Origin: Escherichia phage vB_Eco_mar001J1
Sequence record: NC_048204.1
Reading direction: 5' to 3' (one strand)
DNA: 50,343 nt
Shown here: positions 235 through 46,047 of the stretch, in pieces
Numbering within the stretch: the first letter of the stretch is position 1
How the letters are laid out: each line of letters begins with the position of its first letter
Position numbers and translations under genes: made by a program
Notes under the pieces: generated by a model
Told to the model about the DNA's origin: nothing
What the model saw: only the letters and a program-made list of their open reading frames with translations
Databases searched by the model: none

Positions 235-266
235 TAAAGGAGGCATTAAGCCTCCTTTTTCTTTTC
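235..266. terminator. Bidirectional stem-loop terminator (AGGAGGC/GCCTCCT stem, T-run)
   Basis: 7-bp GC stem 238-256 followed by TTTT; sits between convergent genes. Confidence 0.6.
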
Positions 267-641
267 TCTCCAGTAAAGACAAATCAGCACAATTAACACA
301 ACCACGCATATGATTATTGGATCGTACCATCTGCCGTTATTACCCTGCACAACCTGAATTTTGTCTGCCTTGATGGTATTGGCCTGAATGGTTGATGTTG
401 TGAAATCCTTCTTGCTTGAAGTGTCCACCTTGTCAACCGCAGATTCCTTTATTGTGGTTTCCTGTTTTGTGCTGACGTCCTGCTTTGCTGTAATGCCAAC
501 TGTCTGCTTCACGTTCTCAGCGCCAGCCTGGGCTGTTATTTCCGGCTTACTGCCGATTAATCCGGTCAGTGGCGTAACGCTTGAACATCCAGACAAGATC
601 ACCGCCATTGCGATTGGTGTAAGTAAAAATTTCTTCATCAT
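246..641 (-). CDS. Unimolecular spanin (lipoprotein signal with lipobox LSGC plus C-terminal transmembrane domain)
   Basis: N-terminal [19 protein letters not shown] and C-terminal [15 protein letters not shown]; same architecture as T1 gp11 u-spanin; start overlaps endolysin stop. Confidence 0.7.
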
Positions 642-8777: not shown

Positions 8778-8792
8778 AGCAAAAAGTGCTAT
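8778..8792 (+). repeat. Partial inverted copy of cassette 20-mer (AGCAAAAAGTGCTAT) directly 5' of tail-fibre RBS
   Basis: Reverse complement of the ATAGCACTTTTTG core, abutting AGGAGG. Confidence 0.45.
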
Positions 8793-8809
8793 TTAGGAGG
8801 ATTTTACAA

Positions 8810-11419
8810 ATGGCAATTTACAGACAAGGCCAAGCGTCTATGGACGCGCAAGGTTATGTAACTGGTTACGACACAAAATGGCGTGAGCAATTAACCTTGA
8901 TTCGCCCAGGTGCGACAATATTTTTTATTGACGCCCCTTTTCAGGCGGCGGTAATCAGTGAGGTTATTAGTGATACGCAAATCCGCGCCATCACAACTGG
9001 CGGATCTGAAATTGCGCGAAGCAATTACATCATTTTACTGCATGACTCGATCACTGTTGACGGTCTGGCGCAAGATGTAGCTGAAACGCTGCGCTACTAT
9101 CAAAGCAAGGAAACGCAGATAGAGGAAGCAATTGAATTTTTCAGGAACTTTGATCTGCAAAAGCTGATTGACTTACGTGATGAAACAGTGAGAAATGCGG
9201 CATCAGCAGCACAAAGCGAACAAAACGCGCAAACATGGGCTGGTCAATCTTTTAATCATGCTGAATCAGCAAAAGGCTACATGCAACAAACGCAACAGAT
9301 CAAAGATTCAGCGGTAGCTGAAATTAACTCGGCGCGAGATAAGGGTGTGCTGACTGTAAACCAGACTAAAGATCAAGCTGTTGTTGAAATGAATCAGATT
9401 AAAAGCGACACATCGTCGCTAAAAAATCAGGCGATTGAGGCTAAAACAGGCGCAGAAAGTGCGCGAGATCAGGCTGCTAACCATTCAGCCAACGCATTGC
9501 AGCAAGCAAACCGCGCCGAAATGGAAGCTGATAGAGCGCATCAAGCGGTTGTAGGTTATCAGGGCTGGAAATACGAAAGAACTGTAAACGCTCCAGCGGG
9601 TGCGGAAGATGCAAAATATTACCCTGTGATCTTCCAAGAAAAGAACGTTGGTGATATGACTAAATTAGGCGTTTTCTTCCAGATCTCAACTAGTAATAGG
9701 AATGGTGATTATCCTTATAATTCAGCGTCATTTGCTGGCTATGCTCGTACTTCTGGATGGTCTGACGGCGTTGATAGCGTTTATGGTAATTTCACCATCT
9801 ATCAGAAAGATGAAAGAACTATTGATTCTATTTTGATGCCAGCGAAAGCAACACAAAAGGCGTTTGCAGTTTACATTCGAGGCGGCGCATTTCCTGTTAG
9901 CATTCACTGTGAAAGCAATGTTGATGTTGTTGTCCCAACATCAGATTATGCGCCAGATGGTTTTGTTGAAAACGCAACAGTTTTTAAGTTTGGTGCGACA
10001 GATCCTGCCGCTGAATGTACAGAAGTAAGGGCAATGGTTTTAACTAACACAGGATTCTATGCGATTAATGATTATGTTATCCGCGATATTCTTTTGTTTA
10101 GGGATGGTCTTGGATTGGGTGAGAGACAAACACCAAGATTTTCCGAACTAGATCTTGTTCGTCAATATGCTGGAGCTGCTGAGCTTAGTGGAATCTTGAA
10201 TTTACACGCAAAGGGTGATGATGGTGTTTCTCGGGGTTATTCTCGGGTATACGCTGAAAAGCAAGGCGGATTATGGAAAACAATAATACATACAGCAAAC
10301 AATGAAGGAGACAAGCACGGATACCTGCAATTTGATGAAAACTCAAAGTTATCAGGTCTAAATCATGTTGAAATCAATGGAACTGGTGGGCTTTACTCTA
10401 ACGGGTGGATTACTGCAAAACAGGCAATGCGAGTTGGCTGCGGAACTGCCGAAGGAGGTAATAAAGATATTTACCTGACAAACGCATCAGGAGATGGTGG
10501 AGCTTATGGATGGGTAAACCTTCTACAAGGCAACTGGTACGGTGGATTCTGGCAATTTGGCGCTGTAAGAGGCGGCGCTGCTGATATAGCCCATGTAAAA
10601 GTATTGATTAATAATCAAGGATCTGACGTTAAAGAGTTTAGATTCCACAATGATTACGGTGGATACATGACTGCGCAGCGTGGTTTTAATGGTCAGTGTG
10701 TACAAGGCGCATGGGGTCTTGAATGGGATCACATGGGGGCGCCATACTACGCAAACTCAGTTACAAACAATGACTCTGGTTGGAGTCCTGTTGTTTCTGG
10801 TGGCTCTTTATCAACTGGCGGTTATCATATGCGAGTTGGGCTTGGTGTTGCATCAAACGGAAATGCCGCGTGGCCTGATGTAGCGCTAAAGTTAAATGGT
10901 GATGGTCGTTCTCATCGTGCTTATCATTTTACATATGATGGTGACATTACTACATGGGAGCAAGGTTTCGGCGGAGGTGCTTTTATTTTCGCAAAAAACC
11001 CAACGTCCGATCGTGATTTGAAACACGACATTAAATACACAGACGGAAAGGAAAGCTACGATCGCGTAATGCAATGGTTGCCTGCTATGTTTAAATATAA
11101 CGGATCTGATGTTCAACGTTTTGGCCTGATAGCTCAAGATCTGTTAAAAATCGATCCACAATATGTAAAGCTAGTTCCAGGCTCGCCGGTATTTGAGGAT
11201 GTGATTGGAGTTGATGAAAATGGTGAGGAATACATTGATCGTCAGATTGAAACTGACAGAAATGATGACACATTGGCGCTAGATAGCAATGTTATGCTAA
11301 CAGATATGGCTTGCGCTATGGTCTACATGGGGGGAAAAATTGAGAAAATGGAGAAAGAGATAGATGATCTAAGAAAAGCGGTAGCGAAATTAATCAACAA
11401 TCCAACAGATACAGACTAA
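8810..11419 (+). CDS. Side tail fibre with C-terminal intramolecular chaperone (peptidase S74-like) domain
   Basis: Gln/Ala-rich coiled N-terminal region, long fibre-like body, C-terminal segment typical of autocleaving chaperone domains; AGGAGG RBS. Confidence 0.7.
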   Translation: MAIYRQGQASMDAQGYVTGYDTKWREQLTLIRPGATIFFIDAPFQAAVISEVISDTQIRAITTGGSEIARSNYIILLHDSITVDGLAQDVAETLRYYQSKETQIEEAIEFFRNFDLQKLIDLRDETVRNAASAAQSEQNAQTWAGQSFNHAESAKGYMQQTQQIKDSAVAEINSARDKGVLTVNQTKDQAVVEMNQIKSDTSSLKNQAIEAKTGAESARDQAANHSANALQQANRAEMEADRAHQAVVGYQGWKYERTVNAPAGAEDAKYYPVIFQEKNVGDMTKLGVFFQISTSNRNGDYPYNSASFAGYARTSGWSDGVDSVYGNFTIYQKDERTIDSILMPAKATQKAFAVYIRGGAFPVSIHCESNVDVVVPTSDYAPDGFVENATVFKFGATDPAAECTEVRAMVLTNTGFYAINDYVIRDILLFRDGLGLGERQTPRFSELDLVRQYAGAAELSGILNLHAKGDDGVSRGYSRVYAEKQGGLWKTIIHTANNEGDKHGYLQFDENSKLSGLNHVEINGTGGLYSNGWITAKQAMRVGCGTAEGGNKDIYLTNASGDGGAYGWVNLLQGNWYGGFWQFGAVRGGAADIAHVKVLINNQGSDVKEFRFHNDYGGYMTAQRGFNGQCVQGAWGLEWDHMGAPYYANSVTNNDSGWSPVVSGGSLSTGGYHMRVGLGVASNGNAAWPDVALKLNGDGRSHRAYHFTYDGDITTWEQGFGGGAFIFAKNPTSDRDLKHDIKYTDGKESYDRVMQWLPAMFKYNGSDVQRFGLIAQDLLKIDPQYVKLVPGSPVFEDVIGVDENGEEYIDRQIETDRNDDTLALDSNVMLTDMACAMVYMGGKIEKMEKEIDDLRKAVAKLINNPTDTD

Positions 11420-14226: not shown

Positions 14227-14496
14227 ATGAAAAAATTAATCGCAGTTATCGCCACCGTAGCCGCTCTGACCGGGTGCGCAGCGTCTCCTACTGGCAACTT
14301 CAATGAGATCGACTGCACGGCAAAATTTAACGTTAAAACATTCCCTGTTAACGGATTCCATGAAGTTAAAATTAATGCAGTACGCGAAAACAGATTCAGC
14401 CAAAAGCAATACAGGTTGAGCGTTGACAATAAAGAAGTTAAATTTATCAACCGTTGGCAAAATGAAAGTAAATTTATTGATTTGAGGTGTAATTAA
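14227..14496 (+). CDS. Small lipoprotein, candidate Cor/Llp-type superinfection-exclusion protein
   Basis: Signal peptide with lipobox ALTGC; AAGGAG RBS; locus is convergent with tail gene J. Confidence 0.5.
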   Translation: MKKLIAVIATVAALTGCAASPTGNFNEIDCTAKFNVKTFPVNGFHEVKINAVRENRFSQKQYRLSVDNKEVKFINRWQNESKFIDLRCN

Positions 14497-14774
14497 TGGC
14501 GCAATATGGTTATGCAATATATGACGATCGAGGAAGGGAAGTTACAGGACTTTTAACGCCTGTTTTCTTCCTTGATAAATTCACTCAGCCATCAGGTAGC
14601 AAGACTTACCAAAACAGGCCGCCAGGTAAATCATTGAAAGCAATATATGTTGGCATGAATTCCTGGCGTGGTGGCGACCCTGGAGCACCAAACTTAGGGG
14701 TAAGTGGCGACACCGTTACATGGAGTGGGCTTTATGGATCTGATTCAAGATATATATATACTTTTTGGGGGTGA
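14496..14774 (+). CDS. Hypothetical protein (92 aa), possible receptor-binding locus component
   Basis: GAGGTG RBS, start overlaps lipoprotein stop. Confidence 0.45.
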   Translation: MAQYGYAIYDDRGREVTGLLTPVFFLDKFTQPSGSKTYQNRPPGKSLKAIYVGMNSWRGGDPGAPNLGVSGDTVTWSGLYGSDSRYIYTFWG

Positions 14775-14776
14775 TA

Positions 14777-15391
14777 ATGTACGGGATGAGTATAAAAAAA
14801 TCAGACGGATCGTTATGGTTAAGTCCAGATTTCACTCCAGTTAATCTAATTGATCGGGCAGTAATATCTGCTAATACCGGAACCGTTTTTACTTCGTCAA
14901 TTCCTGTTGATAGGGTATGTTTTTTCTTTGTTAGATTGACTGCTAAATCATACATATCATTTACGCAATTTAACAATGGTGGAAGGCACGCAATAAGAAT
15001 TGATAGATCTGATAATCAAGGGGAGGTTATTGTTTATGCTTTTAGTAACATGGTGACTCCTCCAGGTAGTCACGGCATAGCGTTTTATAACGCTCATGGT
15101 GAAATGGTTTATCATGGAAAAATGAGGCCGCTTGATGCAAAGCAAGTTGGTGTGAGCGGGATCGCGTTTGATGTTAACCTGGGCTACCCTTGCGCAATAA
15201 TGCCATCACTAACAGCGTTAAACTCTGTACCTAATCCGGCTTTAGGTGGATTTATGATTTTTGAGTCTCAAGCTGCCGCGTATGGTAACGGGATCTACTC
15301 TTTTTCCAGGCAGGTTGCACAAACCCCTGGACCTGTTGGTATTTACACCGCCTCATCTGTTTTGGTTATAAATGCATCACACTATGATTAA
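14777..15391 (+). CDS. Hypothetical protein (204 aa), possible receptor-binding protein
   Basis: Track ORF starts at TTG; first ATG is 14777; position next to J and lipoprotein. Confidence 0.4.
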   Translation: MYGMSIKKSDGSLWLSPDFTPVNLIDRAVISANTGTVFTSSIPVDRVCFFFVRLTAKSYISFTQFNNGGRHAIRIDRSDNQGEVIVYAFSNMVTPPGSHGIAFYNAHGEMVYHGKMRPLDAKQVGVSGIAFDVNLGYPCAIMPSLTALNSVPNPALGGFMIFESQAAAYGNGIYSFSRQVAQTPGPVGIYTASSVLVINASHYD

Positions 15392-15424
15392 AATTAAAGG
15401 GGGCTATGCCCCCCCTTTTTTTTA
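15392..15424. terminator. Bidirectional terminator between convergent genes
   Basis: GGGGGC tat GCCCCC followed by an 8-nt T-run. Confidence 0.8.
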
Positions 15425-18400
15425 CCAGCTTCCCGTAATCCTTCCGACTTCAACCCTCAATACTCCGTTTGCATCTTTTACCTTCAATCCTTCGTTGGTG
15501 AATTTAGTAGCTCCCTCTCCTGGAGTTGATCCGTAGTTTTCAAATATTCCGTTTTTATCAAGCCTCCAACCTTGCTGATTTTGAACAAAATTGTTTGACT
15601 GAATAACATTTCCAATCATGGCATTCGTTATGGACCCGTTTTTCACTAACAAGCTGTTAATGAAAACTTGGTTGTTTTCAACAACGAAAGGCAATGTAAA
15701 CGTACCGCCCGTAGAGCTAGTCATGATCGCGAACCTGTTAGCATCGAACAAGATTTGCGAGATCAGGCCTTGAGAAGATTGCGACAACTGCATGATCATG
15801 CCTGCGCTGTACTTCTGCCCCTTGTAAGTAAGGCCCAATTTCATAGCGTACTTAGCGCCAACCGAATCAACGTTGGCCCACGAATCAAGTTTTTGAGCTA
15901 ATGCAGATTCAACGTCTCCAAATTTGGCTGTTAAAGCCTGGTCAGCCTGAACCCTTGCCTCTGTCTCATTGGCGATCGCCTGTTTCACTTCTGAGATGTC
16001 AGCCTCGACTTCTGTTTTGATAACTCCGTCAAGGTCGTTTATCTCTTTCGTGAACTTAGCGTCAAGCTGCTGAACGGCCTGAGCGCGCGCTTCTGATTCA
16101 TTGGCAATGGTTTGCCTTACCTCGCCAATACTTGCAGCCGTATCTCGTTTTACGCCGTCTATTTCCTTCGTAAATTTAGAATCAAGCTGCTGAACTTGAG
16201 TAGCTCGCGTCTCTGATTCGTTGGCAATCGCTTCCTGAACGGTTTTGATACTTGAAACTATATCTTCATCAATTGACGCCCTTAACTCTTCGATTTGAGT
16301 TACGCGCGCCTCCGTTTCGGTAGCAATAAGCTCCAGTGCATGACCATATTCAGCCTTACGCTTTCCGTTTTGTACTCGCGTCCACTTCACATCAGCATCG
16401 TTTGCCAATGCGTTCTGGATGATTGATTGCGCCTGGTCTTTGATTTTGTTTGCACTGTCTATGGCGTTCTCTTTGATTTCTTGGCCCGCTTCGGTATCAA
16501 AAATCTTGTCCAGAATGTCGCCTAAAACAGATTCAACATCATCTGACGCCATGCCGCGAACAAAGTCAGTCCAGCCGGAAACGTTGCCGATCCTGTCAAC
16601 GCTACGGATTCTATACCATACAACTTGACCAGCTGGTAACGTGCTATGCCAATACTCATATTGAGGATATGGAATCAGCGTAAGCAGGCTTGAGTTTTCA
16701 ACCGTTCCGTCTGGAGATTGGTGAAGCTCAATGTAAGCCGTATCGCCTGATCCTTCCGGCATACCCCATTTGACACGAATGCCAAAAACTTCATTATCAG
16801 AAGCTGTAAGATTAATCGGCGCTCCTGGCTCGCCAACTTTACCTGTCAAGGTGGCGGTTGCAATCTTTGACCACGGGGAGGTGTTACCGCTTGCAGAAAC
16901 AGATCTAACCCTTACTTGATAGTTCCCTGAATAAATTCCTTCTACCTCTATCTCTTTGTTAGCTGTCTGCGGCGTATTCAGCCAGTTGCCATCACCTTTT
17001 CGCCACTGCATTTCATAAAGAGATGCGTAAGGAACCTTATCCCATGAAACAACCATAGTCTCAACGCTAACGCCCTGCACGACGCGAGAATAAGATGAGA
17101 TCTGCACGTTCTCAGGCGCTACCATCATGTCAGGCTGAACAATTGAAGTTGGTCTGTCATCAATGTTTACGCCATAATCAATCTCGTCGTATTTGTTCGG
17201 ATCGTACTCTACAGCCGTGATTGAATAGGTAAACTCGTTTTCGTCATCACCCTTGCTGATAGTTGTCACAACGTATTGCTGCAACGCAAGGTCAGTACGG
17301 TCAATCGCAAAAACAGTGTCAGGCTTAACATCAAAACCAAATCCAATATTTAACTCAATGGTTTTTCCGTCTGCGCTAACCTTTGAGATCGTGCGCTTAA
17401 CTGGCTTGCCGTCCGGCTTGTTGATGATAATAAAATCACCAGGACGAGCATCAACCTTAAACGGAACGAAAACCTGCAATCCTGAAACTTCCATCACTCG
17501 GCCCGATAGGTTTAACGTTAGGTTGCTGCTCTGAAAATTATCAGCGATAGCAATCACATCACCTATTGATGGAATCATCCCCTCTAGTCCGGTAGCAAAG
17601 TTTACAGTAGTGCTTCTAAGGTTTGTTTTCAAAACCCACCTACCGCGACGATTCGCTTCGCTCCTGCGTGTGCACCCGATCGCTGTAATGCTTGTTGGAT
17701 TGTATCCAAATCGTAATGCAGCCTCAGTATCAAAAACCCCCTCTACGTCCTGCTGATACATGTTTTGTTCGTCGTCAAACGTCACGTTACACTGCGTGTA
17801 CATGCTTTTTTCGCTTGCGGTTGTGTACTGAAAATCACCGTTGATGACGTTTTCATTAGTAAACACGTATGATGGATCGCGCGGCTTATCAATCACGATT
17901 GATAAACTCTCACCATTCCAAAAGCTCATTCCGCGAAAGATTGAGCAAATGTCACGGATTAGCTGATAAGCCTCAACCTGATTCTGGATCACCACATCGC
18001 ATAGGTAGCGAGGCTCTGTACCGCCCTTACCGTCTGGAACTTTCTGATCACAGTAAACGCCTGCTTCGTATAAGCTCCACTTGTCGATCTGTATTCCTAA
18101 CTCTCGCTGGTCAAGCCCATAACGCTGATTCGTCACCAGATCATAAAGAACCCATGCAGGATTATTTGACCACGCTTTTTTAAAAGTCCCATCCCATGAC
18201 CCGTGATATTCTCTTGATATTGGATCATAGTTGCTTGGCACATTAATAATCTTCCATTTCTTTTTTATAGAAATGTTAGGGATTTGTGTAGGAAACAATT
18301 CGCTGTCAAATTCTACAAATACAAGGCCAGTCAGAGGATAACGGAATTTTGCATCCACAACCTCAGCGTAACTTTGCAGTTTGATTTTATCAGTCACCTT

Positions 18401-19000
18401 TGAAGATGTGCTATCTGGAGTCAGTCGCTTGACTCTGATTAAAACGCGCTCCTCAAACTTAGGAAGATCAATCCTTCTGCTGCGGTCATATCCTGATCTC
18501 GTCTTGCCGTCAATTACATCTCTCATAACCTCGTTATAAGAACCGCCATCAACAGCCATATCTACGGCATATTGAACCCTTACGCCAACAAGATCGCCGT
18601 TATCCTCCTGCTTCATGCCAACTGGCATCAGAATCTTGATTCTGATTGCAGAAAGATTTTTGTTTGTCACAGATATAACATAAGGATTGTCTGCTGTAAT
18701 ATCTCGCGAAACTGTCACCTCGCTTGATGTGTCAGTAAACCCCTGGATGTAATCTTGCGTCTGCGTACCTGGTCGATATTCAGCCGTAACTCCCTCGTAG
18801 TTAACAGTGCCATCGCTGGCAATAACCGGAACATCATCAAGATAAAGATCGCGCAACGTGAAATTTGGATCGCACTCGCCATCAGATACAGCAAGCAAAA
18901 CTTTAATCTTATTTATCGAGATCAGGTTATCTTCCATCTCTTTTGGCACGTAGGGCTTTTGACCGCCCCCTTTACTGCCACTTATCATATATTTAGCCAT
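15422..19000 (-). CDS. J: Central tail fibre / host specificity protein J
   Basis: N-terminal and body similarity to lambda gpJ (SGSKGGG..., VPSNYDP...SWDGTFK), fibronectin-like region; start set at MAKY. Confidence 0.85.
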   Translation of the reverse strand: MAKYMISGSKGGGQKPYVPKEMEDNLISINKIKVLLAVSDGECDPNFTLRDLYLDDVPVIASDGTVNYEGVTAEYRPGTQTQDYIQGFTDTSSEVTVSRDITADNPYVISVTNKNLSAIRIKILMPVGMKQEDNGDLVGVRVQYAVDMAVDGGSYNEVMRDVIDGKTRSGYDRSRRIDLPKFEERVLIRVKRLTPDSTSSKVTDKIKLQSYAEVVDAKFRYPLTGLVFVEFDSELFPTQIPNISIKKKWKIINVPSNYDPISREYHGSWDGTFKKAWSNNPAWVLYDLVTNQRYGLDQRELGIQIDKWSLYEAGVYCDQKVPDGKGGTEPRYLCDVVIQNQVEAYQLIRDICSIFRGMSFWNGESLSIVIDKPRDPSYVFTNENVINGDFQYTTASEKSMYTQCNVTFDDEQNMYQQDVEGVFDTEAALRFGYNPTSITAIGCTRRSEANRRGRWVLKTNLRSTTVNFATGLEGMIPSIGDVIAIADNFQSSNLTLNLSGRVMEVSGLQVFVPFKVDARPGDFIIINKPDGKPVKRTISKVSADGKTIELNIGFGFDVKPDTVFAIDRTDLALQQYVVTTISKGDDENEFTYSITAVEYDPNKYDEIDYGVNIDDRPTSIVQPDMMVAPENVQISSYSRVVQGVSVETMVVSWDKVPYASLYEMQWRKGDGNWLNTPQTANKEIEVEGIYSGNYQVRVRSVSASGNTSPWSKIATATLTGKVGEPGAPINLTASDNEVFGIRVKWGMPEGSGDTAYIELHQSPDGTVENSSLLTLIPYPQYEYWHSTLPAGQVVWYRIRSVDRIGNVSGWTDFVRGMASDDVESVLGDILDKIFDTEAGQEIKENAIDSANKIKDQAQSIIQNALANDADVKWTRVQNGKRKAEYGHALELIATETEARVTQIEELRASIDEDIVSSIKTVQEAIANESETRATQVQQLDSKFTKEIDGVKRDTAASIGEVRQTIANESEARAQAVQQLDAKFTKEINDLDGVIKTEVEADISEVKQAIANETEARVQADQALTAKFGDVESALAQKLDSWANVDSVGAKYAMKLGLTYKGQKYSAGMIMQLSQSSQGLISQILFDANRFAIMTSSTGGTFTLPFVVENNQVFINSLLVKNGSITNAMIGNVIQSNNFVQNQQGWRLDKNGIFENYGSTPGEGATKFTNEGLKVKDANGVLRVEVGRITGSW

Positions 19001-19036
19001 GACTTTTAACCTTTTGTGCTGTTTCTTGGTTTGCAC

Positions 19037-19065
19037 ATTATAAAGGCACAAAAAAACCAGCGCAA
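19037..19065 (-). promoter_or_regulatory. Sigma70-type promoter candidate for J (TTGCGC, 17-bp spacer, TATAAT)
   Basis: Perfect TATAAT; -35 lies in the 3' arm of the upstream terminator hairpin. Confidence 0.4.
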
Positions 19066-29259: not shown

Positions 29260-30273
29260 TTATTCAGGATCGGTGATGGTTAGTCTTTGCTGACCTTTAA
29301 CGCCAGAACCATCAGCAGCGGTCCAGATAACATCAACCTCGCCAGCGGCGATAGTAGTTACTAGTCCAGTACCAGGATCTACAGATGCAAAATCACCACT
29401 TGACAAAGACCAAGAACCGGATTTATTTGTAGCACCTTCTGGAGCAACGACAACGCTCGCCTGAACGGCTTCACCAACAAGTGCAGAATTTTTCTCAAGG
29501 CTTACGGTTGCACTAGCGACGCTAACAACAGCTTTTTCGAATTGATAAACAATCGTGGCCTTAGTCTTGCTTCCATCGTTAGCAGTCCAATTTACGTTTA
29601 CACTACCGAATGCATCACTACCAACAGGAGTTAGAATACCTGTATCGGCATCAATAGTCGCAATGTTTACAGCATCAACAGACCAAACACCAGTTTTATC
29701 GGTGGCGTTGCCAGGCTCTACTGTGATACTGCATTTTACAGGAGCATTGTTTGGCTGCGGACTCTCCTTGTCAGTGTTAATTGTTGCAGACTCTACCAGC
29801 ACCACAGGAGGCGGAGGGGGTGGAACGATGAGAGCATTTTGCTTCACCTGAACCTCAATAATGTGACCGTCTTCGTGCTTAACAAAGCCACCAGCAAAGG
29901 TCCAGCCAACATAATCATCTACGCCAGTTACTACTCCTCCAACACCGATTTTTAGTTTTGAGAATGATTTCGGGGCTTCACTAAGAGAAGTAAGCGCCCA
30001 CACCCGACCGTGAGAAACGACGTTACACACCTCTCCGTCGAGAATTTTACCGCTCAGGTGCTCATATTGGGAACGAAAAGCGATGCCGTAAGGAGTTTCA
30101 CCATCAGAAATCGCCGTCACAACCCTCATTCCATCCACTATTCCGACAACCCGAACCGCTGATCCAAACTCAATATCACCTTGAGCAACACAAGCGCCAT
30201 CAATGTTATAGGTTGAAGTATCAGAGAGATTGCCAGGACATGCATAGTGCAGCATTAAATTTTCATAAGCCAT
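29260..30273 (-). CDS. Head decoration protein paralogue with C-terminal Ig-like extension
   Basis: N-terminal region paralogous to 30334..30813 (TYNIDGACV, PYGIAFRS, HGRVWALTS, AGGFVKH), then PPPPPP linker and beta-rich repeats. Confidence 0.55.
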   Translation of the reverse strand: MAYENLMLHYACPGNLSDTSTYNIDGACVAQGDIEFGSAVRVVGIVDGMRVVTAISDGETPYGIAFRSQYEHLSGKILDGEVCNVVSHGRVWALTSLSEAPKSFSKLKIGVGGVVTGVDDYVGWTFAGGFVKHEDGHIIEVQVKQNALIVPPPPPPVVLVESATINTDKESPQPNNAPVKCSITVEPGNATDKTGVWSVDAVNIATIDADTGILTPVGSDAFGSVNVNWTANDGSKTKATIVYQFEKAVVSVASATVSLEKNSALVGEAVQASVVVAPEGATNKSGSWSLSSGDFASVDPGTGLVTTIAAGEVDVIWTAADGSGVKGQQRLTITDPE

Positions 30274-30282
30274 AATAATTTC

Positions 30283-30318
30283 TCCATAAAAAAAAGGACC
30301 ATCCAAAAGGATGGCCCC
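30283..30318 (-). terminator. Terminator/attenuator between the two decoration paralogues
   Basis: GGCCATCC tttt GGATGGTCC followed by a 9-nt T-run. Confidence 0.65.
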
Positions 30319-30333
30319 AATATTAAACTCTAA

Positions 30334-30813
30334 TTACAGTTGCTGCAACTGAACTTCTACAAGCTTAATATCTTTATATTTGACAAAGCCGCCAGCGTAG
30401 GTCCAGTTAGTAGTGATTGCGCCGTCTGATTTTTCATGACCATCAACATCAAGCTTGACAGCAGTGCCGAAGACTGGTGCTGCGCTGGACTTTGAAAGAA
30501 TCCAAACTCTGCCAGATGTCATTACGTTGATTGCGCTTCCTTCTTCATAAACCATCTGTCCTTGAGAGTTAACAGTTTGCCAGTGAGAACGAATTGCCAC
30601 ACCGTAAGGATATTTTCCTGTTTCCATGCGCTTAATAAGTTTATGACCTTCAACCGCTTGCACTGCGACAACCTGCACGGCAGTACCAACAAGAATTTCT
30701 CCACCTTCACTAACGACGCAAGCGCCGTCAATGTTGTATTTAGAAGTGTCAGCAACCATGCCAGGTAGTGCGATCGCCATAGTGTCAAAATAACTTGCTC
30801 CAATTTTAGCCAT
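30334..30813 (-). CDS. Head decoration protein (lambda gpD-like)
   Basis: 159 aa; DTSKYNIDGACVV resembles gpD; AAGGAG RBS. Confidence 0.5.
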   Translation of the reverse strand: MAKIGASYFDTMAIALPGMVADTSKYNIDGACVVSEGGEILVGTAVQVVAVQAVEGHKLIKRMETGKYPYGVAIRSHWQTVNSQGQMVYEEGSAINVMTSGRVWILSKSSAAPVFGTAVKLDVDGHEKSDGAITTNWTYAGGFVKYKDIKLVEVQLQQL

Positions 30814-38836: not shown

Positions 38837-38880
38837 ACTTTATCAAATGCCCTTGCGGAAGTTTTAACAAAAAGTGCTAT
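38837..38880 (-). promoter_or_regulatory. Cassette promoter candidate (20-mer, hairpin, TAAAGT)
   Basis: Overlaps stop of 38880..39170; 22-bp spacing. Confidence 0.5.
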
Positions 38881-39170
38881 TAGCTCAGATAGTAAAGCTC
38901 ATCGCGCGCGAAGTCATCAAAATCTCGCTGTGTCAACGGTCGATCCTCTCGCGCAGCCTCCTCTATCATGTTGATCAAAAAGTCGTTCATCGCTCCTAGT
39001 CCACCATCCGGCATATAGAAAGCTGCGAAAGCCCGCGCCCATGAACGAGCATTTTTGAATCCGACGCGCTTCATTGTGACTGGCGAGTGTTTAGAGTCGT
39101 TCCACTTGTTAGACTGCGCGATGTTTTCAAAAGCGTTAACCAGTAGTTTGCGGTAAGTTTTGTTTGCCAT
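38880..39170 (-). CDS. Hypothetical protein (96 aa)
   Basis: AAGGGGA RBS. Confidence 0.55.
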   Translation of the reverse strand: MANKTYRKLLVNAFENIAQSNKWNDSKHSPVTMKRVGFKNARSWARAFAAFYMPDGGLGAMNDFLINMIEEAAREDRPLTQRDFDDFARDELYYLS

Positions 39171-40130: not shown

Positions 40131-40174
40131 ATTATAGCGGGGCCGATAACCCCGCGTTTAGCAATTCGTGCTAT
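40131..40174 (-). promoter_or_regulatory. Cassette promoter variant (AAATAGCACGAATTGCTAAAC, hairpin, perfect TATAAT)
   Basis: 22 bp between TTGCTA and TATAAT; overlaps stop of kinase-like gene. Confidence 0.5.
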
Positions 40175-40761
40175 TTAATCTGTGTGTGTTTCCATTTGAC
40201 AGTATTGACGATCTCGTTTACAGCAAGTTCCTGCTTGCCGTCCTGCAAGTGGAAATCATAGTGATGGATTCGATAGTGATAACCGCTCAGGTCAATATAG
40301 TTTCGCGAATCGCCAGCAAACGTGAAGCCGTCGCGATGCAATCGGCAAATATGCACTTCATGCCCTGCCTTAACAAGCGGCTTGATTTCTTCGGGGAATC
40401 CGCCATCACTGATCACAACCGCCAAATCTCGGTACATATCGTGAATCTCTTCAACCATTCGACGCCCGAAATAGTGATCCCCAAAAACTGGCTTCATTAC
40501 ATCCTCGCTAATCCAGATCATGAATTGTCGAGGTGACTTGCCGCCTAAGATAACTTGAGGCTTTTCTTTTTGCTCTCTGTCGTTGTACAGGTCCATAAAT
40601 TCATCGTATCGAGTCGGGCCAAGCATAGAAAAAGCAATGTCGAACATAGGTTGCTTGAATGATGCCTTAACCGCTGGGTAACGATGGCCCGTTAGGTAAG
40701 CTGCAATAGTGTCCTTCCCGCAACCTGGAGGCCCATTAAGGATGATAATGTCTCGTTTCAT
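40171..40761 (-). CDS. P-loop nucleotide kinase-like protein
   Basis: Walker A ILNGPPGCGKDT near N-terminus; 196 aa. Confidence 0.55.
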   Translation of the reverse strand: MKRDIIILNGPPGCGKDTIAAYLTGHRYPAVKASFKQPMFDIAFSMLGPTRYDEFMDLYNDREQKEKPQVILGGKSPRQFMIWISEDVMKPVFGDHYFGRRMVEEIHDMYRDLAVVISDGGFPEEIKPLVKAGHEVHICRLHRDGFTFAGDSRNYIDLSGYHYRIHHYDFHLQDGKQELAVNEIVNTVKWKHTQIK

Positions 40762-41633: not shown

Positions 41634-41677
41634 ACTATACCGCAAGCCCGTTGAGACGTTTTAACAAAAAGTGCTAT
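41634..41677 (-). promoter_or_regulatory. Cassette promoter candidate (20-mer, hairpin GGGCTTGCGGTATAGTAAGCCC, TATAGT)
   Basis: 22-bp spacing; overlaps stop of 41678..41863. Confidence 0.5.
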
Positions 41678-41863
41678 TTAGAATTTTACCTCTTCCACAA
41701 GCTCAACCATCTTGTAACCAAGACGATAAGAGTCACCGAACAACAAGATCCCCATAAATTCATCGTGGCTTATTGACTCTTTGCCAACCGTTCTAAGCTC
41801 TCCGTTGTGAATCACAGTATCGCCGATCTTGATTTCTGATTTATGGACTAATTTCGTTTTCAT
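41678..41863 (-). CDS. Hypothetical protein (61 aa)
   Basis: AGGTGA RBS. Confidence 0.5.
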   Translation of the reverse strand: MKTKLVHKSEIKIGDTVIHNGELRTVGKESISHDEFMGILLFGDSYRLGYKMVELVEEVKF

Positions 41864-42096: not shown

Positions 42097-42140
42097 ATTA
42101 TGCCAGGCTTTGCGCCTGGCGTTTTAACAAAAAGTGCTAT
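42097..42140 (-). promoter_or_regulatory. Cassette promoter candidate (20-mer, hairpin CCAGGCGCAAAGCCTGG, CATAAT, TCGAAACGA leader)
   Basis: Consensus copy; overlaps stop of lipoprotein gene. Confidence 0.55.
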
Positions 42141-42397
42141 TTAATATCTGTTGTGACTTGCTGGTGCATTACGTTCTTTCCGCTGTTGTACGTGCTATCC
42201 GTTGCGCCTTTGCAATTGGTGTAATAGATCGCGCGACCGTTATCATAGAATCTGTATGCTGTGCATCCGTCAACAGTGAACAGGCGACCGACTTTGAAAT
42301 CTGACTCCACGCCTACGACAACCGTTGATTCTGATGCCTTTTCGCATCCGGTCAGGAGTGTCATTGCCGCCAAAACGCCTATTAATGCCTTTTTCAT
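42137..42397 (-). CDS. Small lipoprotein (second Cor/Llp-like candidate)
   Basis: Signal peptide with lipobox LLTGC; strong GAGGAGG RBS. Confidence 0.55.
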   Translation of the reverse strand: MKKALIGVLAAMTLLTGCEKASESTVVVGVESDFKVGRLFTVDGCTAYRFYDNGRAIYYTNCKGATDSTYNSGKNVMHQQVTTDIK

Positions 42398-42861
42398 TAT
42401 TGCTCCTCCTCTTTGATGATTTCGCGGATCATATCCTGGTAGCGGCTTACGCCCTCACAAGCCCCAGCCAGCTTATCCCCTTCCAGGTCCACGATATTCG
42501 GGATTGTTGCCAGTAAGCGATCGGCAAGCTTTTTGATCGCCCTTGCCTTGATGGCTGGCAATTCTTCGGGCGTGATGATTTTCCTTTTCGATTCGCGGAC
42601 CATGCGGAAAACGTAAAATTTATCATCTTCCGTTTCCTCTACCTTGATGCTTACCCGACCTGCGGCCCTTACTTCTGGAACGCGGTTGATAATGGTCCGG
42701 CTGTAGGATGAACTGCGCGTGATCTTGTAACAGTCGTCACCGCTTAACATTCCGGCCAGGTCAATTAGTGACATTTTATACTCTTCAATATCGCCACTGG
42801 CCAGGCGGCGACCAAGCTCGCGAAGCCAATCGCAATAGTCCTTAGTGGTCTTCTGTTCCAT
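42397..42861 (-). CDS. Hypothetical protein (154 aa), first gene of the leftward early operon
   Basis: Start at MEQKTTKDY with GGAGG RBS; consensus promoter upstream. Confidence 0.55.
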   Translation of the reverse strand: MEQKTTKDYCDWLRELGRRLASGDIEEYKMSLIDLAGMLSGDDCYKITRSSSYSRTIINRVPEVRAAGRVSIKVEETEDDKFYVFRMVRESKRKIITPEELPAIKARAIKKLADRLLATIPNIVDLEGDKLAGACEGVSRYQDMIREIIKEEEQ

Positions 42862-42892: not shown

Positions 42893-42920
42893 ATTATAAA
42901 AGCTATTTGGTGCGTGTCAA
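42893..42920 (-). promoter_or_regulatory. Consensus sigma70 promoter (TTGACA, 16-bp spacer, TATAAT) for the leftward early operon
   Basis: Both hexamers match consensus exactly, about 30 bp upstream of the 42861 start. Confidence 0.65.
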
Positions 42921-43200
42921 TGTTTTTGTTGTATTCAAAACGTTACCAATATCGAAAAACTACAAAATCATGCGCAAGTTGTTGATTTCAGGGCTGTTAT
43001 TTTTCTGTTCACGCTGTTAACGCAATCCGCCGGAAAAAGTATATATACATATGCAATCCGCCGCGCGCGCAACTATCCATATATGCCCACACACAACCAC
43101 ACCATAGCCAACAAAAAGCACTGTAACAGTGAGAACAAAAAGAAAACATTATAGATATATATAAATAAATAATCTTTATTTTCAATGTATTATAGAGGAT
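42893..43200. repeat. Divergent control region B, homologous to 13757-14070
   Basis: Same ordered blocks as region A, including the AT-rich TATAGATATATATAAATAAATAAT tract. Confidence 0.6.
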
Positions 43201-43408
43201 TTTCTTTGTTTTTTCCGTTTTCGCTACACCGGAAAACCGCGCGGAAACACGCCGCCTGAAATCGGTAACAGGGGTGAACAAAAGACAACAACCACTGACA
43301 GCCAGGCGGAAAAGTGAGGCAAGAGGGGAAGGTTTCACTATCTCCCCTGCAACCAATGATTAAGCGTGATTACTTTTCTCATCAAATTTGCAAAGGCAAT
43401 CATCATTT

Positions 43409-43448
43409 TGACGTGATTTGATTACGAATGATTACTTCTGATTATTTC
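43409..43448. repeat. Tandem 10-bp direct repeats TGATTAC(N3), iteron-like
   Basis: TGATTACGAA, TGATTACTTC, TGATTATTTC in register, partial copy upstream and another GTGATTAC at 43365. Confidence 0.5.
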
Positions 43449-43475
43449 GATCACAATCCTGGCGCTAACCGTCAA

Positions 43476-43519
43476 ATAGCACTTTTTGTTAAAACTCAGG
43501 CCGTCTGATCGGGTACATT
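43476..43519 (+). promoter_or_regulatory. Cassette promoter candidate for the rightward early operon (20-mer, TACATT, TCGAAACGAA leader)
   Basis: 22 bp between TTGTTA and TACATT. Confidence 0.55.
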
Positions 43520-43553
43520 ACACACATCGAAACGAACCGCTCAGGAGATAGCA

Positions 43554-44515: not shown

Positions 44516-44779
44516 ATGAAAATTAATGCACCTATTCCAGTTAAGCGCAAAGCACGTTTGCTCAACAACGGATGTTACGCCCTGCGGCCTGCATTTAAGG
44601 ATCGCACATTTCCGGTTATCGTTAACGTGTCTCACGTAAGCCGTAGCGGAAATCTGGTATTCGTTAAAGGTGAAGATCTGGCGGAGCTTGTATTCTATGG
44701 CGGTGCTAACGGCGAACCGCTCGGATTCTGGCTTGTAGATCCGTTAACTGGAGAGCGTGAAATCGAATTTCTGGACTAA
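44516..44779 (+). CDS. Hypothetical protein (87 aa)
   Basis: AAGGAG RBS. Confidence 0.55.
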   Translation: MKINAPIPVKRKARLLNNGCYALRPAFKDRTFPVIVNVSHVSRSGNLVFVKGEDLAELVFYGGANGEPLGFWLVDPLTGEREIEFLD

Positions 44780-44823
44780 ATAGCACTTTTTGTTAAAAAC
44801 GATGCGCTGCTGATTGTTATAGT
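44780..44823 (+). promoter_or_regulatory. Cassette promoter candidate (20-mer + TGtTATAGT)
   Basis: 22-bp spacing; the TATAGT has an upstream TG (extended -10). Confidence 0.5.
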
Positions 44824-45052: not shown

Positions 45053-45333
45053 TGGCATACGAAAAGAATGATTTCAATAGCGCAAGAGAAAAAATCAAGG
45101 CGGCGCGAATTAAACAGCGCGCCTTTAGATTCTGGCTTGACTATCGCGATCTAAGAAAAGAGATGGATATGCTTATTAAGACTGGTAGCGCATTCTGCTC
45201 TAATAGAACGGTTTGGCGAAATATGAATGCGCAGTACGGCCAGGGTAAAATTCGTGTATTTGGCGGCGCTGTTGATGCTTATGTATTTAGCGCAACAAGG
45301 GCTGTAAGTTTTAACGTAACTGGGATCGCATAA
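45052..45333 (+). CDS. Hypothetical protein (93 aa)
   Basis: TAATG overlap. Confidence 0.5.
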   Translation: MAYEKNDFNSAREKIKAARIKQRAFRFWLDYRDLRKEMDMLIKTGSAFCSNRTVWRNMNAQYGQGKIRVFGGAVDAYVFSATRAVSFNVTGIA

Positions 45334-45545
45334 TGGCAAAGCAATTAAAACTTAAATGCGTAGAAACCTATAACTCAACATGGACATTTACGCCAGGAAA
45401 AGAATATCCGCTAATGGGTTATCTCAAAGACGACCCTCATGTAATTTCAGATAATGGCTTTTACCTTTATTTAAAGAAATACAAAGATGGATATGTTGGT
45501 ACTGGTTTTCCAGGCCATAAATTCAAGATGAAAAATAAGAAATGA
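45333..45545 (+). CDS. Hypothetical protein (70 aa)
   Basis: TAATG overlap. Confidence 0.5.
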   Translation: MAKQLKLKCVETYNSTWTFTPGKEYPLMGYLKDDPHVISDNGFYLYLKKYKDGYVGTGFPGHKFKMKNKK

Positions 45546-45936: not shown

Positions 45937-46047
45937 ATGAATAAAATTACTTATATTACTCTTTCTGTTGTTGTTTTTATGCTTGGAGTCACTATTGCGG
46001 CGTCATGTGTGGCATTAATTTATATTATGTTTAAGGTGATGATCTGA
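45937..46047 (+). CDS. Small membrane peptide (36 aa, below the ORF-track cutoff)
   Basis: Manual translation MNKITYITLSVVVFMLGVTIAASCVALIYIMFKVMI; AGGAATGA RBS. Confidence 0.4.
   Translation: MNKITYITLSVVVFMLGVTIAASCVALIYIMFKVMI

What the first reader, a model, noticed from the sequence alone, without database searches (positions are those of the whole stretch)
42137..42397. Second small lipoprotein in the leftward early operon
An 86-aa lipoprotein (lipobox LLTGC) with a strong RBS is the second gene of the leftward early operon. Two unrelated small lipoproteins in one compact phage genome is unusual; one may be a Cor/Llp-type exclusion factor and the other could modify the envelope for a different purpose, such as blocking a second receptor or an entry pathway.
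Basis: inference. Interest (0 to 1): 0.4.

Follow-up and report, generated by a model that had tools for sequence, protein, structure and literature searches.

The report
Early phage lipoprotein of unknown function
This T1-like coliphage really does encode a small, early-expressed envelope lipoprotein, but it belongs to a large, already catalogued and uncharacterised phage family (DUF4884), is unrelated to the known receptor-blocking exclusion lipoproteins, and occurs as two ancient interchangeable alleles in near-identical phages, which suggests a role in some conflict that remains untested.

Summary
The window is the whole genome of Escherichia phage vB_Eco_mar001J1 (Drexlerviridae, Warwickvirus). 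The ORF at 42137..42397 (-) is real: 86 aa, lipobox LLTGC, strong Shine-Dalgarno sequence. It is the second gene behind a perfect sigma-70 promoter and its start overlaps the stop of the upstream DUF7174 gene by 1 nt.

It belongs to the extended Pfam DUF4884 family (1,225 clusters at 50% identity). The lipobox is kept in 145 of 150 representatives. Two core cysteines are kept or lost together. A confident AlphaFold model shows a six-stranded all-beta domain with no relative in the PDB.

The phage has three lipoproteins, not two: a u-spanin, Cor (beside the tail-tip gene) and this one. More than 100 deposited phages carry a DUF4884 gene, so it is not unusual.

It is unrelated to Cor, Llp or Rtp45, has no conserved neighbour, and sits in early accessory regions of both virulent and temperate phages. 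In phages about 98% identical in the flanks, the mature domain is swapped for an allele about 47% identical (dS ~1.7 against ~0.05). The allele is independent of Cor, of the upstream gene and of all other loci tested.

The function is unknown. My best guess (~0.4) is a receptor-independent envelope-level exclusion or entry block. Interest is moderate.

The parts
42893..42920 (-). Perfect-consensus sigma-70 promoter (TTGACA-16 nt-TATAAT) that drives the leftward unit
   Evidence: 12/12 hexamer matches. It is 100% conserved in tonnikala, JLBYU26 and L019.
42397..42861 (-). First cistron: DUF7174 protein (154 aa from ATG 42861, MEQKTTK). The longer ORF from 42894 would begin inside the -10 hexamer.
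   Evidence: Pfam PF23796, E = 1.7e-50; phrog_4841. Relatives annotate a 465-nt CDS. This gene is itself mosaic between relatives.
42403..42411 (-). Shine-Dalgarno sequence GAGGAGGAG of the lipoprotein gene, lying inside the end of the upstream cistron
   Evidence: Read directly from the sequence.
42137..42397 (-). Target CDS: 86-aa prolipoprotein of the extended DUF4884 family. Its start overlaps the upstream TAA stop by 1 nt.
   Evidence: dN/dS is 0.10-0.37.
42347..42397 (-). Signal peptide, residues 1-17 (MKKALIGVLAAMTLLTG). Modelled as a helix.
   Evidence: About 90% nt identical between alleles A and B, whereas the mature part is about 60%.
42344..42346 (-). Cys18 codon, the predicted diacylglyceryl acceptor and first residue of the mature protein. 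The +2 residue is Glu, not Asp.
   Evidence: Invariant in A1 and 99% conserved in A2. A lipobox lies upstream of the core in 145 of 150 family representatives.
42140..42343 (-). Mature periplasmic domain, residues 19-86: a variable linker plus beta1, a conserved beta2-beta4 core (F.V..LFTVDGCTAYRF.D..R.IYYTNC.G), and a variable beta5-beta6 hairpin. Cys45 (42263..42265) and Cys62 (42212..42214) form a predicted disulfide.
   Evidence: AlphaFold2 model with pLDDT 89.7 and six strands. Per-region conservation. The Cys pair is kept in 115 and lost together in 20 of 150 representatives.
42122..42143 (-). Copy of a repeated 22-nt promoter-like element (AAATAGCACTTTTTGTTAAAAC) that overlaps the TAG stop. 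It is followed by the hairpin GCCAGGC-GCAAA-GCCTGGC (42102..42121) and a CATAAT hexamer.

Best explanation
Shown by sequence and comparison: the gene encodes a genuine phage lipoprotein of the large, uncharacterised DUF4884 family. It is transcribed from the strongest-looking host-type promoter of the early region and is translationally coupled to the preceding gene.

Inferred from established lipoprotein biology (Sec export, Lgt/LspA/Lnt processing, the Lol '+2 rule' in which Asp at +2 retains a protein in the inner membrane): the protein is exported, lipidated on Cys18 and sorted to the inner leaflet of the outer membrane, because its +2 residue is Glu. A ~68-residue mature part (a ~60-residue six-stranded beta fold, residues 24-83) would then hang in the periplasm, stabilised by a Cys45-Cys62 disulfide.

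Inferred function (most likely, not shown): it acts alone, early in infection, as an envelope-level conflict factor. In this reading it is a superinfection-exclusion or entry-blocking lipoprotein that does NOT work by masking the phage's own terminal receptor, which is Cor's job. It would instead interfere with a later or receptor-independent step of a competitor's entry, such as periplasmic passage or channel formation. The variable edge strands (linker/beta1 and the beta5-beta6 hairpin) would set specificity.
For: Real, constrained gene. Lipoprotein hallmarks hold across the family: lipobox in 145/150 representatives, and the core Cys pair kept in 115 and lost together in 20, never the second Cys alone. 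Confident all-beta model. Consensus promoter, SD sequence and 1-nt stop/start overlap. The gene is always co-directional with early or accessory genes in 77 loci and has no conserved partner. In temperate Pseudomonas (pro)phages it lies between the repressor/ERF/YqaJ genes and the integrase, which (from general knowledge of lambdoid phages) is where exclusion and other accessory genes such as sieB lie. In virulent phages it lies among early DNA-metabolism genes. Conflict-gene signature: flanks are 97-99.5% nt identical while the mature domain is ~58-63% identical; dS is ~1.6-2.4 against 0.03-0.11 in the flanks. The allele is independent of Cor, of the upstream DUF7174 allele, and of every other ORF tested. 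Hosts seen are diderm only. Precedents for lipoprotein exclusion factors: Llp (PMC9586334), Rtp45 (bioRxiv 10.1101/2025.07.07.663478), and the receptor-independent Ltp type (PMC3952083).
Against: No experiment exists on any family member, apart from a proteomic detection of BT_3183 (PMC8931616). There is no sequence or fold similarity to any known exclusion protein. The most conserved residues are probably structural (turns and core), so they say nothing about the target. Allelic mosaicism is also typical of anti-defence genes and of other accessory genes; the neighbouring DUF7174 gene is mosaic too. Early timing is inferred, not measured. The genome-wide association test used only 4 allele-A and 2 allele-B genomes.
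Confidence: 0.4

Rival explanations
1. Host-envelope takeover or anti-defence factor. The lipoprotein binds a conserved host periplasmic or outer-membrane component, for example a peptidoglycan-remodelling enzyme, part of an envelope machine, or an envelope-located defence. This would stabilise or re-programme the infected cell envelope rather than exclude other phages.
For: The beta2-beta4 core is highly conserved from coliphages to Pseudomonas and Bacteroidota-type phages. The protein is early and strongly expressed, acts without a phage-encoded partner, and shows the allelic mosaicism typical of counter-defence genes.
Against: No hit in PADLOC or NCBIfam beyond the signal peptide. No fold match to known periplasmic inhibitors; PliC scored E = 3.9 with rmsd 11 A, which is not significant. 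The gene is dispensable for the family, being absent from T1 and, going by 117 matching records against the 522 Drexlerviridae genomes counted in PMC13164509, from most Drexlerviridae. The conserved residues look structural.
Confidence: 0.3
2. Receptor-cognate exclusion factor of the Cor/Llp/Rtp45 type that masks a second outer-membrane receptor.
For: It is a small outer-membrane-directed lipoprotein with an internal disulfide, like Llp and Rtp45 (PMC9586334; bioRxiv 10.1101/2025.07.07.663478). Its edge strands are variable.
Against: It is not encoded at the RBP locus, where the characterised Drexlerviridae exclusion lipoproteins Cor and Rtp45 lie (PMC8594841). Allele type is independent of the Cor/RBP module. 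Homologs occur in this Cor-carrying (presumably FhuA-targeting) phage and in LptD-targeting phages (PMC8594841), and in phages of unrelated host genera that lack the same receptors. There is no similarity to Cor, and Pfam and PHROGs gave no hit to any exclusion family beyond the signal peptide.
Confidence: 0.1
3. Lysis accessory, either spanin-like or a lysis-timing regulator acting in the periplasm.
For: It is a periplasmic lipoprotein. There is a weak PHROG signal to an Rz-like spanin (phrog_1275, E = 0.06), but only over the signal peptide, residues 2-28.
Against: The phage has its own complete holin/endolysin/u-spanin cassette elsewhere (246..638 is the u-spanin). The gene is never adjacent to lysis genes in 77 loci. 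It has no C-terminal TM segment and is not embedded in an i-spanin gene. It sits behind an early-type promoter.
Confidence: 0.05

Closest known systems
Pfam DUF4884 (PF16225) / PHROG 6360, uncharacterised small lipoproteins
   Same: The core motif and architecture are the same: signal peptide, lipobox Cys, short linker, then a beta-rich core. 112 of 123 aligned family members hit PF16225. UniRef and some GenBank records already name the close homologs 'DUF4884 domain-containing protein'.
   Different: The target itself scores 24.7 bits, below Pfam's gathering cut-off of 30, and matches only profile positions 3-33 of 49. The Pfam model covers only the core. No function is attached to the family.
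Cor (T1, phi80, N15, HK022) superinfection-exclusion lipoprotein
   Same: It is a small phage lipoprotein of about 80-90 aa in the same genome and is probably outer-membrane directed.
   Different: The mature domains have no sequence similarity. Cor lies beside gpJ and the RBP-locus genes (14227..14496), whereas the target is in the early arm. Cor is nearly invariant among phages that differ in the target allele. Cor blocks FhuA-dependent phages (cited in PMC13164509).
T5 Llp and Rtp45, structurally characterised receptor-masking exclusion lipoproteins
   Same: They are small periplasmic lipoproteins with an internal disulfide, and Llp is an early gene. They work by binding the periplasmic face of the receptor (FhuA, LptDE) and remodelling its external loops (PMC9586334; bioRxiv 10.1101/2025.07.07.663478).
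   Different: There is no sequence or fold match: a Foldseek search of the PDB gave nothing at E < 1 and a profile search against PDB sequences found only signal-peptide-level hits. Both are encoded next to their cognate RBP gene, and the target is not. Phage Rtp carries both Rtp45 and a separate DUF4884 gene, rtp3.
Ltp-type lipoproteins of Streptococcus thermophilus phages (TP-J34)
   Same: This is a precedent for a phage lipoprotein that excludes superinfecting phages at the DNA-injection step rather than by masking a receptor (PMC3952083). It is the closest analogue in mechanism to the favoured hypothesis.
   Different: Ltp comes from a Gram-positive host, is surface-exposed, is expressed from the prophage and is an unrelated protein. 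The resemblance is functional analogy only and was not tested.
T1 gp11-type u-spanin
   Same: It is the third lipoprotein of the same phage and also has an N-terminal lipobox.
   Different: The u-spanin (246..638, phrog_1804 E = 6e-47, 46% identical to T1 gp11) has a C-terminal TM anchor and sits in the lysis cassette. The target has neither feature.

Membership tests
Bacterial/phage lipoprotein (Lgt/LspA substrate) | N-terminal signal peptide with a basic n-region, a hydrophobic h-region and the lipobox [LVI][ASTVI][GAS]C | tested here: met
   MKK-ALIGVLAAMTL-LTGC, with Cys18. The lipobox is conserved in 145 of 150 family representatives.
Bacterial/phage lipoprotein (Lgt/LspA substrate) | Actual lipidation and signal peptidase II cleavage | not testable with these tools
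   This needs palmitate labelling, globomycin treatment or mass spectrometry.
Bacterial/phage lipoprotein (Lgt/LspA substrate) | Exported mature domain (oxidising compartment) | tested here: met
   The evidence is indirect. The core Cys45/Cys62 pair co-varies: both present in 115, both absent in 20, and the second alone in 0 of 150 representatives. 52 of 150 carry an extra C-terminal CxxxC pair.
Pfam DUF4884 (PF16225) | Score at or above the curated gathering threshold (30 bits) | tested here: not met
   24.7 bits, E = 2e-5, covering residues 32-60 only.
Pfam DUF4884 (PF16225) | Homology to bona fide members through a family profile | tested here: met
   All 37 close homologs carry a precomputed PF16225 assignment. 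112 of 123 members of alignment A2 hit PF16225 at E <= 1e-3. The target scores E = 9.6e-32 against the A2 profile. It is best described as a member of the extended DUF4884 family.
Cor superinfection-exclusion family (phrog_1119 / NF047972) | Profile match over the mature domain | tested here: not met
   phrog_1119 gives E = 0.075 over residues 1-24 only, the signal peptide. There is no NCBIfam Cor hit. BLASTP of the mature domains finds no alignment at E <= 100.
Cor/Llp/Rtp45-type receptor-cognate exclusion lipoproteins | Encoded in the RBP locus next to gpJ or the RBP gene, and co-varying with receptor specificity | tested here: not met
   The gene lies about 23 kb from gpJ in the early arm. 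Its allele is independent of Cor. It is present in this Cor-carrying phage and in LptD-type phages (PMC8594841).
Cor/Llp/Rtp45-type receptor-cognate exclusion lipoproteins | Confers resistance to phages that use the cognate receptor | not testable with these tools
   This needs expression in E. coli followed by plating-efficiency and adsorption assays.
Spanins (o-spanin / u-spanin) | Located in the lysis cassette; an o-spanin is embedded in or adjacent to an i-spanin gene, or a u-spanin has a C-terminal TM domain | tested here: not met
   There is no TM segment after Cys18. The lysis cassette lies elsewhere and has its own u-spanin. No lysis gene is a neighbour in 77 loci.
Known anti-phage defence components (PADLOC-DB) | Profile match | tested here: not met
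   No hit at E <= 1.

The most novel reading that the evidence does not exclude
DUF4884 defines a widespread new class of phage periplasmic lipoproteins, with a previously unsolved small beta fold, that act early and alone as receptor-independent blockers of competitor-phage entry or of another envelope-level conflict. The variable edge strands would encode specificity, and ancient alleles would be kept by frequency-dependent selection and shuffled by recombination among otherwise identical phages.
Probability: 0.3. Interest if true: 0.6.

Novelty: new member of a known kind. Interest (0 to 1): 0.38.

Why it matters
If this protein is an exclusion or entry-blocking factor, T1-like phages would carry two independent envelope-level exclusion layers: Cor at the receptor and DUF4884 elsewhere. 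A family of more than 1,000 sequence clusters in phages of Proteobacteria and Bacteroidota would also gain a function. That bears on phage-cocktail design, where phages can interfere with each other, and on the list of phage proteins that target the Gram-negative envelope. The identical protein is present in the BASEL phage FritzSarasin (Bas04), and natural A/B allele pairs exist in near-isogenic phages, so the question is cheap to test. As it stands, the finding is a solid annotation of an uncharacterised accessory gene, not a surprise.

Tried and rejected
1. Fold-based function transfer. The confident AF2 model has no significant PDB match (best E = 1.1), and in BFVD it matches only its own family. 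The first shallow-alignment model (pLDDT 62) was not used.
2. Sequence profile against PDB chains. Only signal-peptide-level hits.
3. NCBIfam and PADLOC. Only signal-peptide matches, or nothing.
4. Guilt by association in 77 loci. No neighbour family occurs in more than 10 loci. DUF7174 is nearby in Drexlerviridae but is not always adjacent, and its alleles assort independently.
5. Link to the receptor/Cor module. Rejected.
6. Genome-wide co-variation with allele type (4 A against 2 B genomes). The only candidate, the 70-aa ORF at 45333..45545, was refuted by a tblastn search over all phages.
7. Homolog in T1 itself. None; only Cor's signal peptide hits weakly.
8. Plasmid homologs, as a test of an entry-exclusion analogy. 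None.
9. Rfam scan of the window. No hits.
10. The hairpin after the stop codon as an intrinsic terminator. It has no T-run and the scan did not call it.
11. The search for related loci with the very diverse alignment A2 failed because no stretch was conserved enough. It was repeated with A3, whose narrow search pattern biases the loci recovered.
12. Literature. Two papers mention DUF4884 and neither is functional.

Full report
**Identity of the window.** The 50,343-bp window is the complete genome of Escherichia phage vB_Eco_mar001J1 (LR027388 / NC_048206), in a permuted orientation. Its closest relatives are Drexlerviridae, Tempevirinae, genus Warwickvirus.

- ORF 42137..42397 (-) encodes 86 aa beginning MKKALIGVLAAMTLLTGC|EK.
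- The lipobox LLTGC places the acceptor Cys at residue 18.
- The Shine-Dalgarno sequence GAGGAGGAG (42411..42403) has its GGAGG core 7 nt before the ATG, and the ATG overlaps the upstream TAA stop by one base.
- A 12/12 consensus sigma-70 promoter, TTGACA-16-TATAAT, lies at 42920..42893 (-).
- The first cistron is therefore the DUF7174 gene. Its true start is probably ATG 42861, since the longer ORF would begin inside the -10 hexamer, and relatives annotate a 465-nt CDS.
- The lipoprotein gene is the second cistron. 'Early' is an inference from the host-type promoter and from the position in the divergent non-structural arms. It was not measured.

**It is a real, constrained gene.**
- There are 37 close homologs, all carrying Pfam PF16225.
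- An exhaustive profile search finds 1,225 clusters (at 50% identity) at E <= 1e-3.
- A family HMM scores the ORF at E = 9.6e-32.
- Pairwise dN/dS is 0.10-0.37.
- Pfam's own DUF4884 model gives only 24.7 bits (gathering cut-off 30) over residues 32-60. However, 112 of 123 aligned family members hit it, and UniRef already names the Warwickvirus protein DUF4884. I file it as a member of the extended DUF4884 family.

**Lipoprotein and periplasmic character is family-wide.**
- Of 150 diverse representatives, 145 have a lipobox Cys upstream of the conserved core.
- The two core cysteines (Cys45, Cys62 here) are both present in 115, both absent in 20, the first alone in 13 (some of these are regex mis-registrations), and the second alone in none. 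This co-variation is what a disulfide in an oxidising compartment predicts.
- 52 of 150 carry an additional C-terminal CxxxC pair.
- The +2 residue here is Glu. By the established E. coli Lol-avoidance rule (Asp at +2 retains a lipoprotein in the inner membrane), this predicts outer-membrane sorting. That step is inference.

**Structure.**
- With a shallow alignment, AlphaFold2 gave pLDDT 62.
- With a 123-sequence alignment it gave pLDDT 89.7 and pTM 0.71. The model has a signal-peptide helix and six consecutive antiparallel strands: 24-28, 34-42, 45-52, 55-60, 64-72 and 75-83.
- Foldseek finds nothing significant in the PDB (best E = 1.1), and in BFVD it finds only its own family.
- A profile search against PDB sequences finds only signal-peptide matches.
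- Conservation is concentrated in beta2-beta4. The linker/beta1 and the beta5-beta6 hairpin are variable.

**There are three lipoproteins, and two already have roles.**
- A relaxed lipobox scan finds a third lipoprotein at 246..638 (-).
- It is the u-spanin: phrog_1804 E = 6e-47, 46% identical to T1 gp11, with a C-terminal TM segment.
- The lipoprotein at 14227..14496 (+) is Cor (phrog_1119 E = 1e-7). It sits beside the gpJ tail-tip gene (15422..19051) and the two RBP-locus genes phrog_557 and phrog_425.
- Cor and the target share nothing beyond the signal peptide.
- Calling the arrangement 'unusual' is not right, because 117 deposited phage records carry a DUF4884 homolog.
- T1 itself lacks it.

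**Context elsewhere.**
- In 77 loci from viral contigs and bacterial genomes, the gene is almost always co-directional with its neighbours.
- No neighbour family recurs in more than 10 loci.
- In temperate Pseudomonas (pro)phages it lies between the S24 repressor/ERF/YqaJ genes and the integrase. In virulent phages it lies among early DNA-metabolism genes such as the 5'-3' exonuclease and UvdE.
- A Bacteroidota-style member sits in a replication/recombination module.
- In Rtp-like phages, DUF7174 lies upstream but two genes away.
- The hosts seen are diderm only. There are no plasmid homologs.
- The gene therefore behaves as an autonomous early accessory gene.

**Allelic dimorphism is the most informative result.**
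- Against tonnikala-type phages, the promoter and the flanking genes are 97-100% nt identical, while the lipoprotein gene is 64-69% identical.
- The break falls inside the gene: the signal peptide is about 90% identical and the mature domain about 58-63%.
- Between alleles, dS is 1.6-2.4 (saturated), against 0.03-0.11 in the flanks, and dN/dS is about 0.2.
- These are therefore old alleles exchanged by recombination, not the result of rapid in-situ evolution.
- Allele type is independent of Cor, which is 94-100% identical in phages carrying either allele. NorthRox, for example, has Cor at 100% and DUF4884 at 48%.
- It is also independent of the upstream DUF7174 allele; all four combinations occur.
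- In a whole-genome comparison of 4 allele-A and 2 allele-B genomes, no other ORF tracked the allele. The single candidate, the 70-aa ORF at 45333..45545, was refuted across all phages.
- Homologs also occur in the LptD-targeting phages Rtp (rtp3) and JeanPiccard (PMC8594841). Rtp's characterised exclusion lipoprotein, Rtp45, is a different protein encoded at the RBP locus (bioRxiv 10.1101/2025.07.07.663478).

**Interpretation.**
- A receptor-cognate masking role of the Cor/Llp/Rtp45 type is unlikely (about 0.1).
- A lysis role is unlikely (about 0.05).
- What remains is an autonomous envelope-level factor with a conflict-gene signature.
- I favour a receptor-independent superinfection-exclusion or entry block (about 0.4). 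It is analogous in logic to Ltp-type lipoproteins (PMC3952083), or to exclusion systems that act after adsorption (P22 SieA, PMC10883804).
- The main rival is a host-envelope takeover or anti-defence role (about 0.3).
- No experiment on any family member exists in the searchable literature, apart from a proteomic detection of B. thetaiotaomicron BT_3183.

**Verdict.** The gene is a real and well-supported early lipoprotein gene. It is a member of a catalogued but uncharacterised family with an unsolved fold. It is not a Cor/Llp homolog and it is not unusual within its phage family. The ancient A/B allele swap in near-isogenic phages, and the availability of the identical protein in BASEL phage FritzSarasin, make it a cheap and worthwhile experimental target. 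Interest is moderate.

Noticed in passing
window 42122..42143, 41658..41679, 38860..38881, (weaker) 40157..40180 on the minus strand; 43474..43495 and 44777..44798 on the plus strand: A 22-nt element, AAATAGCACTTTTTGTTAAAAC, recurs in the intergenic gaps of both divergent early arms and always points in the direction of the local genes. About 18 nt downstream each copy has a -10-like hexamer (CATAAT, TATAGT or TAAAGT). It looks like a family of phage promoters with a conserved upstream element, and it is 100% conserved in phage tonnikala. It is distinct from the single perfect sigma-70 promoter at 42920..42893.
   Followed up: partly
window 246..638 (-): This is a third lipoprotein, the T1 gp11-type unimolecular spanin: lipobox ILSGC, a C-terminal TM segment, phrog_1804 E = 6e-47, 46% identical to T1 gp11.
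   Followed up: yes
window 14227..15391 (+), next to gpJ at 15422..19051 (-): The Cor cassette consists of cor (14227..14496) followed by a phrog_557 'outer membrane protein' gene and a phrog_425 'membrane associated protein' gene, convergent with the gpJ tail-tip gene. This is the same trio described for T1 and KanT1 (PMC13164509). In T1, however, cor is on the opposite strand to the other two genes, whereas here all three are co-directional.
   Followed up: partly
window 42397..42861 (-) (DUF7174) and 42895..43553 (divergent intergenic region containing ORF 43009..43356): The upstream DUF7174 gene and the adjacent ~650-bp divergent control region are also mosaic. They are ~98% identical in FritzSarasin and tonnikala but only ~29-34% (protein level) in atuna, tiwna and NorthRox, independently of the lipoprotein allele. 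ORF 43009..43356 has no PHROG hit and may not be coding.
   Followed up: partly
window 29260..30813 (-) and 8786..11419 (+): Other mosaic loci between near-identical Warwickvirus genomes. Two head-region ORFs (29260..30306 and 30334..30813) are ~23-53% identical in four relatives but 97-98% in NorthRox. The lateral tail fibre gene (8786..11419) varies from 17% to 98%.
   Followed up: no
phage records MG065636, MG065643, MG065649 etc. ('Campylobacter phage A16a, E6, A143 ...'): Several records labelled as Campylobacter jejuni phages carry Warwickvirus-like DUF4884 and Cor genes at 86-91% identity and have genome sizes of about 50 kb. They look like T1-like coliphages, so the host labels may be wrong or the preparations contaminated.
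   Followed up: no
window 45937..46047 (+): A 36-aa ORF (MNKITYITLSVVVFMLGVTIAASCVALIYIMFKVMI) has a lipobox-like AASC, but the sequence after it is hydrophobic. It is more likely a tiny membrane protein than a lipoprotein. In JLBYU26 it is annotated, implausibly, as a TamB-like module.
   Followed up: no
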